DNA of 64,000 nt from the human T2T-CHM13v2.0 reference genome, Homo sapiens, in assembly GCF_009914755.1 (NCBI RefSeq), contig NC_060932.1, one strand, 5' to 3'. Shown piece by piece: positions 34,741-52,295 of this stretch; position 1 is the stretch's first letter, and the number at the start of each line of letters is the position of its first letter. Under the pieces are notes generated by a model, which worked only from the letters and a program-made list of their open reading frames with translations, was not told the origin of the DNA and searched no databases. Made by a program: the position numbers and the translations under genes.

Positions 34741-35744
34741 TGCCAAGCATTTTCAAATGCACATCAAGTCCCCCAAGTTCTATTTGGCCAAAAGGCTGGT
34801 GTAGGCTCAATTGCTCCTTCCCTGCCCTTGGAGATCTTCCCCTTCTTCCCGGTACCGGCCTTAAGCAAAAATGAAAACCCAAGAAAATATAGGTTGGTTT
34901 TCTCCAAACTCTTTCCTTCACTGGGACTATAACCTCTTCCTGGATCTCCTCCTTAACAGAGTTTGCTTACAGCAAAAGAGACAATATCCATTATTTATTC
35001 TGCAGCACACATTTCAATGAGCATGACCTGTCCAGAGTATTAGCATGCTCCCTTTCAGCTGTCGGCCAGCAGGGAAGGAAGGAAACATTAGGGGGATGGC
35101 ACTGGCACAGATGAGCTCAGACTTCTATGCTCACAGACAAGCCTGGTACTGCCTTCAGAACGAGTCTAAGAACACAGAGCCTGTGTTGAAACCATCATAA
35201 CCTCTTCACATTCGGAGACCCTTACTCCTAACCCCCAGAGTGAAAAAGCTGCCAGACGGATATTACGTTTCCTTTTCTTGCTAGGTTTTCTCAGGCCTAT
35301 ATCAATTTTTTATTTTTTGCAAATGGACAAATGTGTCCATTTGCAGAGCAGAGAGGCTCAAATAACAAACAGAAGAGTTGACAAGATGCCAGAACCCGAT
35401 TTCTAGTCCTCTCTTCCATCCATGCAAGCAAACCACTTAGACCTCTACGTCCCACACACCTCATCCTTCAGAGGCATTTCCACAAGTGTCATTAGCAGCT
35501 TTAAAAAGTGAGGAGAGCATTAAATAATTCCAAACGCATTTTCCCTTTTGGAAATGATCCTTCAAAAGCACCATCTTGAGACAAAACTTTAAAGGTATGT
35601 TGACTTTTATTCCACTGCATAGCTTTAGAGCCCCTGATGTCACATTGTCCTACTGCCTTCATGGTCGGTGGGGATGAGAACAGTGGGAATCACTGTGCTG
35701 TGGAGGAGAAAAGGAGAGCAGGGTCTCGTTCCATTTCTTCCAGA

Positions 35745-38232: not shown

Positions 38233-38591
<359 letters not shown>

Positions 38592-44325: not shown

Positions 44326-44374
<49 letters not shown>

Positions 44375-46834: not shown

Positions 46835-48570
<1,736 letters not shown>

Positions 48571-48584
48571 TTCAAGTCAGTAAA

Positions 48585-48705
48585 AAATTTATAATTTTAA
48601 TAAAATTAAAGTCAATAAATTTTATAATTTTATTTAATTTTTAATTAAATTAATTTTAATTTTATTTAATTTATTAATTTAATAATTTTAACAAAATTAA
48701 AAAAT
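48585..48705. repeat. AT-rich low-complexity tract
   Basis: almost exclusively A/T. Confidence 0.9.
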
Positions 48706-51700
48706 AAGATGGCCCACGGGACACAGCCATGTGTAAGAGCTTCCACGCAGAAACGAAGAGGACTGGCACACTCCTAACATCTTCAGAGGGAAGTCACAGA
48801 GTGGGCAGAAGGAAGACACAGAAGCTGGGCTGAAGGGGGAGGAAGCTGGGAACCCTGCATGGGGCTGCCATGCACCAGGACTCATTTCTGGCCCCCACCC
48901 AACTAATCTGGAGAAATGGATGAATTGAACTGGCAAGGAGCAACCCGCTCTCACCAGGAGCCGAGATTCTGAAATCTCGGCGGGAGACCCTTCGACCATG
49001 AGTTGACCTGCTCCACTACGTGACACTGCATGGAGCGATGTGTAGTGTGCGGACTCCGATCTTAGAGGTCAGATGTGGATGCTCAGGGATTCACCGAACT
49101 AGATTCCTGACTGATTGACCAGCGGGTGGACTCTGGGGAACACGATTGAGAAATGCGTACTTTGGGAGTGAAAACTGGCCCCGGGACAGGAGGGAGTGTG
49201 GTGCAAGCTGTCTTCTCCGTGAAATCCACGCTGTGTCCGGCAGCGTGGATTTCATGGACTTCGTTCCAGTGTGACAGATATTGCCACTCTGAGGTCGTGG
49301 GTCTGGAGTCTACTCTGAACTGCTGCTTAGAGAAGTGGTAAGGGCAGCAGCCCAGCTGATACCTAGTCCAGGATTTGGTGCTGGTGCGTCTGTAGCCCAC
49401 CACAGCTAGGAACACCCATTTCCCAAAGCTCAACTTGCTCCCTTAGGAGACTTTAGCCCTAGGGGAACTGTCCAACCTGAATTCTGCAAGGTGGTCTTGC
49501 CCATCAGATAGGGCCATCCAACCTGAGGACTCCTTGGTCTGCTGGCCTCTCCCAGGGGTCCAGCCTGGCTGTGCCTGCTTACAGGGTAGCCTTGGGTGCC
49601 CTAGGGGCCCACACCATAGCTCCTGTGCTGATGGAGCCTGCCTGACTGATGGGGAGCTCCAGCCGGGCAGCCCCCACAGCCGCACACCAGCCTGCCAGCT
49701 CCCTCCCCACACTACAGACTTCCCTGGGCCCACAGCAAGCCCCCACATCGCTTTGCTGGCACTTTTGTGCACAGGCGGGTTTTGCCTTCCTTGCCCCGCC
49801 AGCATGTGTGTGTGCATGCACCCCGCCCTGCCACTGCTGCAGCAGGAGTACACTCTGGCACCCCCACATGGAAGCCATTGCAGTTGGAGCCAGCCCCACC
49901 AGTGCCCCACCCTTGCACCAACACTGCTGCAAGAGTGAAACTAGGCAGAGAGAACAGCCGACCATCCCCCTGCCCTAAGCAACCACCCTTGCCTGCTGTA
50001 CACAAAAAGCATACACAGACCTGCACCTGCCAGCCCCCCACCCCCAAGCTAACACCACACCGCCACCAGCGCAACCGCACCAGCAAGACCCCCCCAGCCC
50101 AACCCCCAAGGCATGCTGCCTCTGCCACTGTGAGTGAACACCAGCATGGAAGAAGGCACCCCAGCATCCACTACTTAGGTCTTAGGAATTGATTTCTTGA
50201 TTTCTTCTTTATTTTATTATTAAGGAGATATTATTAATAAGCACATTATTAAGGTGCTCCAACACAGGAGCTCCCAGGTTCATAAAGCAAGTTCTTAAAG
50301 ACCTTCAAAGACACTTCAAAGACACTTAGATTCAGATAAAACAGACTTTAAGCCAACAATGATCAAAAATGTGAAAGAAGGGCATTATGTAATGACAAGG
50401 GATTCAATCCAATAAAACTTAACAATCCTAAATATATACACACCAAACATTGGAGCACACAGATTCATAAAGCAAGTACTTTTAGACCTACAAAAAGATT
50501 TAGCCACACAATAATAGTGGGAGACTTAAACCACTACACTGACAGCATTAGGTGGATTATTGAGGCAGAAAACTAACAAAGAAATTCAGGACTTAAATTT
50601 GACGCTGGAAAAATTGGACCTAATTGACATCTACAGAATACTCCTCCATCCATCAACCACATTCTTCTCACCTGGACATGGAACAAACTCTAAGATCGAC
50701 CACATGCTTGACCATAAAATAAGTATCAATAAATCCAAGAATATAGAAATCATACCAACCATACTGTCAGTCCACAATGGAATAAAAATAGAAATCAATA
50801 CCAAGAAGATCTTCCAAAACTACACAATTACATGGGAATTAAACAACTTGCTTCTGAATGTCTTCTGGGTAAATAATGAAATTAAGGCAGAAATCAAAAC
50901 ATTCTTTGAAATAGATGAAAATAGAGATACAACATACCAAAATCTCTAGGATGCAACAAAAGCAGTGCTGAGGAAAGTTTATAGTGCTAAATACCTATAT
51001 CAAGAAGTTAGAAAGATCTCAAATTCAGATCTAACATTACACCTAGAGGAACTAGAAAAAAAAAAAAAAACTAACCTGAAAGCTAGAAGAAGAAAAAAAT
51101 TACCAAAATCAGAGCAGACCTAAATGAACTTAAGACCTAAAAACCTATACAAAGGATCAAAAAAACCAAAAGTTGGTTTTTTGAAAGAATAAACAAGAGC
51201 AATAGATCATTAACTAGATTAACAAAGAAAAAGAGAATATCCAAATAAGCACAATCAGAAATGACAAAGGTGACATTTCAATTTATCCCACAGAAATACA
51301 AATATAAAAAATCCTCAGAGACTATTAAACAGTTATAGCCACCTGATCTTTGACAAAGTTGTCAAAAGTAAACAATGGAGAAAGGACTCCCTATTCAATA
51401 AATAGGGAATAGCTGGAATAGCTGGCTAGCCATATGGAGAAGAATGAAACTGAATCCTTACCTTTTAAAATATATAAAAATCAGCTCAAGATGGATTAAA
51501 GATTTAAATGCAAGACCTCAAACTATAATATCTCTAGTAGAAAATACTATTCTGGACATCAACCTTGATAAAGAATTTATGATTAAGTCTTCAAAAGCAA
51601 TTGTAACAGAAACTGACAAGTGGAAACTAAACTAAAGAGCTTCTGCACAGCAAAAGAAACTATCGACAGAGTAAACAGACAACCTACAGAATGGAAGAAA

Positions 51701-51955
51701 ATATTTACAAACTATGCATTCGACAAAGGTCTAATATACAGACTCAATGGGGAACTAAACAATGCAACAAGTAAAAAACGATAACCTCATTAAAGGGTGG
51801 CCAAAGAACATGAACAGACACTTCTCAGTAGATAACAAATGGCCAAGAAACATATGAAAAAGGGTTCAATATCACGAATCAGAGAAATGCAAATAAAAAC
51901 CACAATGAAATACCATCTAACAGGGAGTATGGCCATTATTAAAAAGTCAAAAAAA
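48706..51955 (+). mobile_element. L1PREC2/L1PA15-16-like element: 5'UTR, EN domain, 3' ORF2, with large internal deletions
   Basis: aagatggcc..cttcagagggaag..gaagctgggctgaagggggaggaagctgggaaccctg; ORF 50560-50949 is L1 endonuclease (DLIDIYR..SKIDHML). Confidence 0.85.
49013..49319. other. unassigned CpG-rich ~300-bp insert with inverted repeat, inside the L1 5'UTR
   Basis: splits tgagttg..gctgcttagagaagtgg, contiguous in the recalled L1 consensus; flanked by tga(c/a)ctgct; 15 CpGs; 14-bp perfect IR 49220-49254. Confidence 0.7.
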
Positions 51956-52295
51956 TCAGTCAATGAAAAACACCACATTAGTAGAATGAAGGGTAAAAAC
52001 TCATTATTATCTCAAACAATGCAAAAAATTTTGACGAAATTACTGCCTTTTTATGATTAAAAAAACACTCAATAAGCTAGGAATAGAAGGAAACCACCCC
52101 AACATAATGAAGTCCATAAATGAAAAAGCCAAAACTAACAGCAAACTCAAGGATAAAAGACCAAAAAAGCTTTTCCTCTAAGATCATGAACATGTTACTG
52201 AAGTCCTACCCAGAGCAATTATGCAAGGAAGATAAATAAAAGGCTTCCAAATTGGAAAGGAAGAAATCAGATTATCTCTGTTTGCAAAGGACATT
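51956..52295 (+). mobile_element. L1M ORF2 (RT region) fragment
   Basis: aacactcaataagctaggaatagaaggaaac..gcttttcctctaagatca..attggaaaggaagaa. Confidence 0.8.

What the first reader, a model, noticed from the sequence alone, without database searches (positions are those of the whole stretch)
49216..49258. Near-perfect 18-bp hairpin at the core of the insert
Seen: tgaaatccacgctg (49220-49233) / 7-nt loop tgtccgg / cagcgtggatttca (49241-49254) is a perfect 14-bp inverted repeat. It extends to 18 bp through tccg/tgga with one G-U pair, which works only on the plus-strand RNA (L1 sense direction) and could also be CpG decay of a once-perfect IR. Weaker stems occur in the insert: cactac/gtagtg (49014/49042), tcagggat/attcctga (49083/49103), gactcc/ggagtc (49052/49305). 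A 9-bp stem gccgagatt/aatctcggc (48960-48981) lies just upstream. Inference: an RNA stem-loop (processing, packaging or small-RNA precursor), a dimeric protein operator, or a cruciform.
Basis: partly seen in the sequence, partly recalled or inferred. Interest (0 to 1): 0.7.

Follow-up and report, generated by a model that had tools for sequence, protein, structure and literature searches.

The report
Inherited palindrome in captured DNA patch
The hairpin is real, but it arrived as a passenger inside a roughly 315-base patch of foreign DNA, copied from a small sequence family that flanks ribosomal-DNA-like sequence, which was pasted into an old dead L1 element, and nothing found here shows that it has a function.

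Summary
Arms 49216-49233 and 49241-49258 form an 18-bp stem (14 perfect pairs, one G-U). The RNA fold gives -34 kcal/mol, z -7.2. It is the only perfect inverted repeat of 13 bp or more in the window that is not AT-rich.

The stem lies in a foreign patch (about 49006-49321) that interrupts the 5' region of an old, rearranged plus-strand L1. None of 26 other copies of that L1 family carries the patch.

The patch has about 13 nt of filler plus 301 nt. The 301 nt are 90% identical to a chr12 pericentromeric locus, 86% to two chrY copies, 78% to chr19, and 71% to five acrocentric copies about 9 kb distal to the rDNA arrays. In those paralogs the piece sits beside rDNA-spacer-like sequence, and homology runs past both ends of the chr8 piece. 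The patch has no target-site duplication and no poly-A, and about 10 bp of L1 are lost. This fits double-strand-break patch repair.

The palindrome came from the donor. It is present in chr12 and chrY, bulged in chr19, and gone in the acrocentric copies. Its arms change as fast as the flanks, covariation does not exceed shuffles, there is no Rfam match, and the stem is too short for a canonical pri-miRNA.

Verdict: ordinary, with an interesting origin.

The parts
49216..49258 (+). The hairpin: 18-bp inverted repeat (14 perfect pairs, one G-U) with a 7-nt spacer
49019..49319 (.). A 301-nt templated piece copied from a low-copy paralog family. It is 90% identical to chr12:38003883-38004183 (minus strand), 86% to two chrY copies, 78% to chr19 and 71% to five acrocentric distal-junction copies
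49006..49018 (.). About 13 nt of filler at the left junction with no source found
48706..49005 (+). Left part of the 5' region of an old L1 family. Its 5' boundary is sharp and shared with the other copies
49320..50173 (+). Right part of the same L1 5' region. In other copies it resumes about 27 nt after the left part
48960..48981 (+). A 9-bp perfect hairpin private to this L1 copy, made by a cluster of changes about 20-25 nt from the left junction
   Evidence: (0 of 26 other copies)
50530..50949 (+). L1 ORF2 protein remnant (residues 147-286 of the human protein), which fixes the L1 sense strand
   Evidence: E 2.9e-39

Best explanation
The hairpin is a passenger palindrome with no detectable function of its own. 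An old L1 on the plus strand suffered a break in its 5' region, now at about 49005/49320. The break was sealed by end joining that lost about 10 bp of L1, added about 13 nt of filler and patched in a 301-nt copy (from DNA or a transcript) of a sequence from a different chromosome. The donor belongs to a small paralog family: chr12 pericentromere, two chrY copies, chr19 pericentromere, and the distal junction of all five rDNA-bearing short arms. In every member the hairpin-bearing piece lies just upstream of diverged rDNA-spacer-like sequence. The palindrome already existed in the common ancestor of the chr8, chr12 and chrY copies and was copied along with the patch. It looks near-perfect on chr8 only because that clade is fairly young (10-14% pairwise divergence). 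It has been decaying neutrally, mostly by CpG-to-TpG changes. Shown here: that the piece is an insert, its donors, the junction anatomy, that the palindrome was inherited, and that no constraint is detectable. Inferred: break repair as the mechanism, the dating, and the lack of function.
For: Insert status:
- 36 scored places match only the left flank (query positions up to 299), and 7 further rows match the right flank.
- All 26 fetched L1-family loci match the left flank. 24 of 26 resume at 49322-49330, one resumes at 49414 and one not at all.
- In those copies about 27 nt separate the two parts, against 323 nt here.

Donors:
- A search with the insert alone scored all 10 candidate places: itself, chr12, chrY twice, chr19 and five acrocentric copies.
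- Only 49019-49319 is shared with chr12 and chrY. Everything else shared is Alu.
- Homology among chr12, chrY, chr19 and the distal junction continues past both ends of the chr8 piece, so chr8 holds a fragment and not a mobile unit.
- chr12 and chrY are paralogous over at least 16 kb. chr19 and the distal junction are paralogous over 2.6 kb.
- The chr12 unit continues into rDNA-spacer-like sequence: 76% over 1780 bp to a piece of a chr21 rDNA unit, and hits with 44,385-bp spacing.
- The distal-junction copy lies about 9 kb before the measured first rDNA base, chr22:4793796.

Junctions:
- There is no target-site duplication and no poly-A. About 10 nt of L1 are missing, and the filler has no source.
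- This matches class 2 templated sequence insertions as defined in the abstract of PMC5110952.

Inherited and decaying:
- Folds at the homologous place give chr12 z -3.0, chrY z -3.0, chr19 z -1.15 with a bulge, and distal junction z -0.55 with no hairpin.
- Stem versus flank differences are 2/36 vs 28/262, 5/36 vs 37/262 and 4/36 vs 36/262, with Fisher p 0.55-1.0.
- The covariation score is 0.156 against 0.121 in shuffles, and 115 of 500 shuffles reach it.
- No Rfam match at E up to 1 overlaps 48700-49400 or the paralog loci apart from Alu-derived hits.
Against: With 36 stem positions and three close paralogs, the test for constraint has little power. chr8 versus chr12 does show fewer changes in the stem (5.6% vs 10.7%), though not significantly.

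All three CpG sites that changed in the arms changed as C to T on the window's plus strand, which keeps G-U pairing in a plus-strand RNA. With 3-4 events this is at best p about 0.06-0.13 by my own binomial arithmetic.

The core of the palindrome is old enough to be recognisable in chr19.

No expression, small-RNA, population or cross-species data could be consulted, so lack of function is inferred, not shown. I could not run RepeatMasker or Dfam, so a named low-copy repeat cannot be excluded.
Confidence: 0.72

Rival explanations
1. The hairpin is a functional RNA stem-loop, such as a small-RNA precursor or a processing or binding signal. It would be transcribed in the plus sense and kept in the chr8, chr12 and chrY copies.
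For: The fold is very stable and better on the plus strand. The arm transitions keep G-U pairing on that strand. The wider 156-nt stretch folds into a longer imperfect hairpin, z -3.9. Template switching and palindromes are documented raw material for new miRNAs (abstract of PMC10710096).
Against: The stem has 19 bp and a 5-7 nt loop, then a 3/14-nt asymmetric internal loop. The preferred pri-miRNA form has a stem of about 35 bp and a loop of 10 nt or more (introduction of PMC10710096). There is no Rfam match. Covariation does not exceed shuffles. The arms evolve like the flanks. The structure is lost in the acrocentric paralog and bulged in chr19. RefSeq lists no gene here (hub table). The L1 host is old and internally deleted.
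Confidence: 0.07
2. The palindrome is a binding site for a dimeric protein, or a cruciform-forming or fragile DNA element. In the latter case its tendency to break could explain why this donor piece was released and captured.
For: The half-sites are perfectly symmetric over 14 bp. The DNA hairpin is stable, -20.2 kcal/mol, z -7.6. The palindrome sits near the middle of the captured piece.
Against: The 7-nt spacer and 18-bp arms are short for cruciform extrusion in vivo (general knowledge, not tested). If the donor had broken at the palindrome, the palindrome would lie at an end of the fragment and not in its middle. No motif library was available to test binding. The arms decay in the paralogs.
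Confidence: 0.05
3. The patch entered during L1 reverse transcription: the enzyme switched from L1 RNA to a foreign transcript and back. The chimera would then have been born with this L1 copy and not inserted later.
For: L1 reverse transcriptase is known to switch templates (general knowledge). The patch lies in the L1 sense strand context and has no hallmarks of its own.
Against: This needs two switches, with a return within about 10-25 nt of the point of departure. The patch is far less diverged from its donor (10%) than the L1 is from its family (20-25% pairwise). The patch keeps CpG at observed/expected 0.72, against 0.35 and 0.15 in the L1 flanks. Both points argue that the patch is younger than the L1.
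Confidence: 0.08
4. The near-perfect repeat was created by a template-switch mutation. This happened not on chr8 but in the common ancestor of the chr8, chr12 and chrY copies, turning an imperfect repeat like that of chr19 into a perfect one. This concerns origin only and is compatible with the best explanation.
For: Relative to chr19 and the distal junction, the clade has 4 extra nt in the 5' arm that are the exact complement of the 3' arm, plus further differences that all raise complementarity. Such events are common in primates: over 6,000 hairpins, per the abstract of PMC10710096.
Against: The differences lie on both arms, whereas one switch rewrites only one arm. Decay of a perfect ancestor along the long chr19/distal-junction branch explains them equally well. 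There is no outgroup: the canonical rDNA piece examined lacks the segment.
Confidence: 0.3

Closest known systems
Class 2 templated sequence insertions (DSB 'patch' insertions; Onozawa and Aplan, PMC5110952, abstract read)
   Same: [quoted passage not shown] There is small loss and filler at the junction.
   Different: This is an old, apparently fixed insertion inside a dead L1. Whether the template was RNA or DNA cannot be told. Polymorphism was not tested.
Template-switch-generated hairpins and de novo miRNAs (Monttinen et al. 2023, PMC10710096, abstract and introduction read)
   Same: A short, perfect inverted repeat in primate DNA. The neighbouring 9-bp hairpin at 48960-48981 has the typical signature: a private cluster of changes that makes the arms perfect.
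   Different: The 18-bp hairpin was not made at this locus; it was inherited from the donor. The stem is about half the length preferred by the miRNA pathway, and there is no evidence of expression.
rDNA distal junction and dispersed rDNA-like relics (Floutsakou et al. 2013, PMC3847771, passages read; Robicheau et al. 2017, PMC5381670, listing abstract, passages and section 21 read)
   Same: The donor family includes one copy on each of the five rDNA-bearing short arms, about 9 kb distal to the first rDNA unit. In all members it is linked to diverged spacer-like sequence.
   Different: The hairpin-bearing piece itself was not found in the rDNA units. The papers, as far as I read them, do not describe this piece.
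Nuclear capture of organelle or other DNA fragments at breaks (NUMT-like filler DNA; recalled, no call)
   Same: A foreign fragment is used as a patch during end joining.
   Different: Here the source is nuclear, from a duplicated pericentromeric or rDNA-flank sequence.

Membership tests
Canonical pri-miRNA hairpin | Stem of about 35 bp with an unstructured apical loop of 10 nt or more (as stated in the introduction of PMC10710096) | tested here: not met
Canonical pri-miRNA hairpin | Match to a curated miRNA or other RNA family | tested here: not met
   In Rfam 15 at E up to 1 over 47000-52000, 7 matches, none overlapping 48700-49400. The paralog loci gave only Alu-derived matches
Canonical pri-miRNA hairpin | Mature small RNAs mapping to the arms | not testable with these tools
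   No expression data are available here
Structured functional RNA (any) | Pairs kept by compensatory change, and the stem more conserved than the flanks | tested here: not met
   Covariation score 0.156 vs 0.121 in shuffles, reached by 115 of 500. The 2 double-sided changes are one CpG-type change and one in a doubtfully aligned row. Stem vs flank Fisher p 0.55-1.0 within the close clade. Power is low
Class 2 templated sequence insertion (DSB patch) | [quoted passage not shown] | tested here: met
   301 nt, 90% identical to chr12:38003883-38004183, with flanks unrelated apart from Alu
Class 2 templated sequence insertion (DSB patch) | No target-site duplication, no poly-A, no L1 endonuclease-type junction | tested here: met
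   Junctions were read against 8 and 26 other L1 copies. About 10 nt of L1 are lost, there are 13 nt of filler, and no A-run at either end
Class 2 templated sequence insertion (DSB patch) | Absent from the ancestral (empty) site | tested here: inconclusive
   Absent from all 26 paralogous L1 copies, but the orthologous empty site in another primate could not be examined
L1-mediated retrocopy (class 1 insertion or processed pseudogene) | Target-site duplication and a 3' poly-A tail | tested here: not met
Mobile element (MITE, DNA transposon or LTR) | Defined ends, terminal repeats and dispersed independent copies | tested here: not met
   Only 10 places were found. All 9 others lie in shared duplicated contexts, and homology runs past both chr8 ends. 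No Dfam or RepeatMasker run was possible
Template-switch mutation made at this locus | Perfect arms present in this copy but not in its closest relatives | tested here: not met
   chr12 and chrY carry the same palindrome. For the separate 9-bp hairpin at 48960-48981 the feature is met: 0 of 26 relatives have it
rDNA intergenic-spacer relic | Homology to the canonical rDNA unit | tested here: inconclusive
   The neighbouring sequence in chr12 is 76% identical over 1780 bp to a piece of a chr21 rDNA unit. The hairpin piece has no match in the 4.5 kb of unit examined and did not hit the arrays.

The most novel reading that the evidence does not exclude
The palindrome is a selected element of an ancient sequence module that sits at the edge between the rDNA spacer and the distal junction. 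It could be a short-hairpin RNA or a symmetric protein site. On this reading it was kept in the chr12, chrY and chr8 copies for tens of millions of years in a form that preserves pairing on one strand, and the chr8 patch seeded a copy of it far from any nucleolar organiser.
Probability: 0.04. Interest if true: 0.55.

Novelty: new member of a known kind. Interest (0 to 1): 0.18.

Why it matters
On its own it matters little. It is one more old patch insertion carrying one more palindrome, and a genome of this size is expected to hold on the order of a hundred comparable perfect repeats by chance.

Two things make it mildly useful. First, it is a clean, datable example of break repair that copied a piece of a pericentromeric or rDNA-flank duplicate into a euchromatic L1. 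A second, private mini-hairpin next to the junction may record error-prone synthesis at the same event. Second, tracing the donor showed that the last 9 kb or so of the acrocentric distal junction, and loci on chr12, chrY and chr19, share an old module that joins this piece to diverged rDNA-spacer-like sequence. That may interest people who reconstruct the history of nucleolar organiser flanks.

Tried and rejected
- **Rfam:** nothing was found on the window region or on four paralog loci apart from Alu-derived hits.
- **Covariance model:** a model of the hairpin region was built, but this genome cannot be searched with a model. More diverged copies could therefore be sought only by DNA similarity.
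- **Pfam:** five short L1 reading-frame pieces gave nothing at E up to 0.01. The L1 identity was obtained from solved structures instead.
- **L1 ORF1:** an ORF1-like frame downstream of the 5' region in family copy L016 found no solved structure at E up to 1. Calling 48706-50173 an L1 5' region therefore rests on three things: the sharp shared 5' boundary, the copy number (740 first-look candidates), and its position just upstream of ORF2 on the same strand.
- **Filler:** searches for a source in the window and 12 fetched loci, allowing 2-3 mismatches, found only the filler itself.
- **More of the rDNA unit:** Only 4.5 kb of one unit was examined.
- **Rejected readings:** a mobile element, because homology overruns both ends and there are only duplicated-context copies; a retrocopy, because there is no poly-A or target-site duplication; and a template-switch scar made on chr8, because the donors have the palindrome.
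- **Literature:** the papers on the distal junction and on rDNA relics, as far as read, do not mention this piece. I did not search for it by any other term, so I make no claim that it is unpublished.
Full report
**1. The observation**

- The repeat finder reports arms 49216-49233 and 49241-49258: 18 nt, 94% complementary, 7 nt apart.
- As plus-strand RNA, 49206-49268 folds into a 19-pair stem at -34.0 kcal/mol. Shuffles average -14.3 (sd 2.7), z -7.23, and 0 of 200 do as well.
- The minus strand reaches -27.3, z -6.12, because the G-U becomes an A.C mismatch.
- As DNA the value is -20.2, z -7.59.
- A script scan of the whole window for perfect inverted repeats of 11 bp or more with 3-15-nt loops found this to be the only one of 13 bp or more outside (TA)n and AT-rich tracts. 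The runner-up is 12 bp at 35318-35345.
- By my own arithmetic such a repeat is expected about 0.003 times per window but about 150 times per genome. It stands out locally, but a scan of very many windows will meet such cases.

**2. The surroundings: an insert in an old L1**

- A search of the window's own genome with 48700-49400 returned 47 rows from 40 scored places out of 740 first-look candidates. 36 places match only query positions up to 299 (window 48706-48998). 7 further rows match only 622-697 (window about 49322-49396). Only three other places match the middle.
- All 26 fetched family loci match the left part, with a sharp common start at 48699-48762, mostly 48706. 24 of 26 resume at 49322-49330, one at 49414 and one not at all. 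They then run on to about 50173.
- In those copies the two parts are about 27 nt apart. Here they are 323 nt apart.
- Downstream on the same strand, 50530-50949 encodes residues 147-286 of the L1 ORF2 protein (E 2.9e-39 to solved structures).
- The flanks are therefore the 5' region of an old plus-strand L1. It is 66-83% identical to its relatives and has itself lost ORF1 and much of ORF2.
- Calling it the 5' untranslated region is an inference from position, copy number and the shared boundary. An ORF1-like frame follows it in a relative, but I could not confirm that frame by a library match.

**3. The junctions**

- Against 8 and then 26 relatives, the L1 sequence runs up to a GAGTTG motif ending at 49005.
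- About 13 nt follow with no counterpart in the L1 family, in the donor, in the window or in 12 fetched loci.
- Next come the 301 nt shared with the donor (49019-49319).
- The L1 resumes at its CTGCTTAGAG motif. About 10 nt of L1 between the two motifs are missing, and a further 11 nt or so are missing just upstream.
- There is no duplication of the target and no A- or T-run at either end.
- A possible 3-5-nt microhomology at the right junction is my reading, not a tested result.
- This anatomy matches what Onozawa and Aplan call class 2 templated sequence insertions, a patch from a distant region used to repair a double-strand break (abstract of PMC5110952). It does not match L1-mediated insertion.

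**4. The donor**

- With the insert alone as query, all 10 first-look candidates were scored:

| Place | Identity to the chr8 piece | Length matched |
|---|---|---|
| chr8 (itself) | 100% | whole query (331 nt) |
| chr12:38003883-38004183 | 90% | 301 nt |
| two chrY places | 86% | 298 nt |
| chr19:30369072-30369276 | 78% | about 210 nt |
| one place each on chr13, 14, 15, 21, 22 | 71% | about 230 nt |

- Only the 301 nt are shared between chr8 and chr12 or chrY. The rest of the matches are Alu.
- The other members are duplicated segments. chr12 and chrY are about 84% identical over at least 16 kb (85% over 3.3 kb). chr19 and the acrocentric copy are 82.6% identical over 2.6 kb. Two acrocentric copies are 99.4% identical to each other.
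- Between the two groups homology is contiguous for about 650 nt at about 62%, and it runs past both ends of the chr8 piece. The chr8 piece is therefore an internal fragment of a longer unit, not a mobile element.
- Downstream of the piece, the chr12 unit continues into sequence that hits tandem chr21 copies spaced 44,385 bp apart (78%) and many pericentromeric copies at 80-83% (40 of 253 candidates scored). It aligns at 76% over 1780 bp to a fetched 4.5-kb piece of a chr21 rDNA unit. This is rDNA-spacer-like sequence.
- The acrocentric copy has the same order of parts.
- I measured the start of the repeated rDNA on chr22 at 4,793,796. The acrocentric copy (4,784,716-4,784,924) therefore lies about 9 kb distal to it, inside what the literature calls the distal junction (PMC3847771, passages read).
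- The hairpin piece itself was not found in the rDNA arrays or in the 4.5 kb of unit examined. The remainder of the unit could not be fetched.
- Degraded rDNA units, spacer included, are known to be scattered in the human genome (abstract of PMC5381670 as shown in the search listing).

**5. The hairpin in the paralogs**

- chr12 and chrY carry the same palindrome with one or two more wobbles or mismatches: -27.6, z -2.99, and -24.4, z -3.00.
- chr19 lacks 4 nt of the 5' arm and folds with a bulge, z -1.15; 25 of 200 shuffles do as well.
- In the acrocentric copy the minimum-energy fold has no hairpin at the place, z -0.55; 53 of 200 shuffles do as well.
- Within the close clade the arms change as fast as the rest of the piece: 2/36 vs 28/262 (chr8-chr12), 5/36 vs 37/262 (chr8-chrY) and 4/36 vs 36/262 (chr12-chrY), with Fisher p 0.55 to 1.0.
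- On a five-sequence alignment, 90% of cells pair against 88.0% in shuffles (120 of 500 reach it). The covariation score is 0.156 against 0.121 (115 of 500 reach it). Two pairs change on both sides (146 of 500 reach it). One of the two is a symmetric CpG decay in chr19 and the other lies in the poorly aligned acrocentric row.
- All three changed CpG sites in the arms changed C to T on the plus strand, which keeps wobble pairing on that strand. With 3-4 events this is not significant (my arithmetic, p about 0.06-0.13). I record it as the one hint in favour of an RNA reading.

**6. Age**

- chr8 differs from chr12 by about 10%, from chrY by 14%, and chr12 from chrY by 13%. The patch therefore came from the chr12 lineage, or from a lost close relative, after the split from chrY.
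- The L1 is 17-34% different from its relatives.
- The patch keeps CpG at observed/expected 0.72, against 0.35 and 0.15 in the L1 flanks.
- The patch is therefore younger than the L1. This argues against a chimera made during the L1's own reverse transcription.
- In absolute terms this means tens of millions of years, which is an inference from recalled primate substitution rates.

**7. Comparison with known kinds**

- *miRNA precursor:* the stem (19 bp, 5-7-nt loop, then a 3/14-nt asymmetric loop) falls well short of the roughly 35-bp stem and 10-nt or longer loop preferred (introduction of PMC10710096). Rfam has nothing.
- *Template-switch hairpin:* the mechanism is common in primates (abstract of PMC10710096). 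However, this palindrome was not made on chr8. Whether a switch perfected it in the chr12/chrY/chr8 ancestor cannot be decided without an outgroup. The differences from chr19 lie on both arms, which one switch does not explain.
- *Patch insertion:* all features I could test are met.
- *Protein site or cruciform:* not testable here. The size and the 7-nt spacer make cruciform extrusion unlikely (general knowledge).

**8. A neighbour worth noting**

0 of 26 relatives have it.
- It arises from a 5-nt insertion, two or three substitutions and a 3-nt loss within about 25 nt. It is stable as DNA, z -3.56.
- This is the signature of a template switch or snap-back synthesis. It lies about 20-25 nt from the left junction, next to the 11-nt loss.
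- I think it plausible, though unproven, that it records the same error-prone repair event that brought in the patch.

**9. Verdict**

The structure is real and non-random. Its presence on chr8 is explained by descent from a donor that already had it. The evidence available shows neutral decay and not maintenance. It is a new example of known processes. Its origin from a module linked to rDNA flanks is the most interesting part.

Noticed in passing
window 48960-48981: A 9-bp perfect hairpin with a 4-nt loop is private to this L1 copy (0 of 26 family copies). It is produced by a 5-nt insertion plus clustered changes about 20-25 nt from the insert's left junction. It looks like a template-switch or snap-back footprint, possibly from the same repair event.
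   Followed up: partly
L052/L056 (chr22:4783000-4794999), L058 (chr12:38001582-38005748), L070 (chr21 rDNA unit piece): The last 9 kb or so of the acrocentric distal junction holds pieces 69-73% identical to, and in the same order as, the rDNA spacer just upstream of the junction point. The chr12/chrY locus is 76% identical to the same spacer region over 1.8 kb. This looks like an old spacer relic that escaped homogenisation and was duplicated to pericentromeres.
   Followed up: partly
window 50173-51635: The host L1 is internally deleted. The 5' region ends near 50173 and ORF2 protein residue 147 is already at 50533, so ORF1 and the start of ORF2 are missing. By my recall of the protein, a frame at 51402-51635 resembles its C-terminal third only about 450 nt after residue 286, so most of the reverse-transcriptase part seems to be missing too.
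   Followed up: partly
window 49019-49319 versus 48706-48998 and 49322-50173: The insert keeps 15 CpGs (observed/expected 0.72), while the surrounding L1 has 0.35 and 0.15. This points to a CpG-rich, probably unmethylated, source and a younger age.
   Followed up: partly
L050 (chr12:37994000-37997200) and L057 (chrY): The chr12 and chrY paralogous segments abut tandem repeats whose self-matches are offset by about 170 nt. By recall this is the period of alpha satellite, consistent with a pericentromeric setting.
   Followed up: no
window 35318-35345: The second-longest perfect inverted repeat outside AT-rich tracts: 12 bp with a 4-nt loop.
   Followed up: no
window 48560-48700; 44326-44372; 38355-38387: An AT-rich, quasi-repetitive tract lies directly upstream of the L1 5' boundary. 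Two (TA)n runs dominate the list of perfect hairpins in the window.
   Followed up: no
window 48200-48560: A plus-strand frame with an L1 ORF1-like look (by recall; no Pfam match at E up to 0.01) lies upstream of the L1 5' region, preceded by a GA-rich tract. It is probably a fragment of a different, older L1.
   Followed up: no
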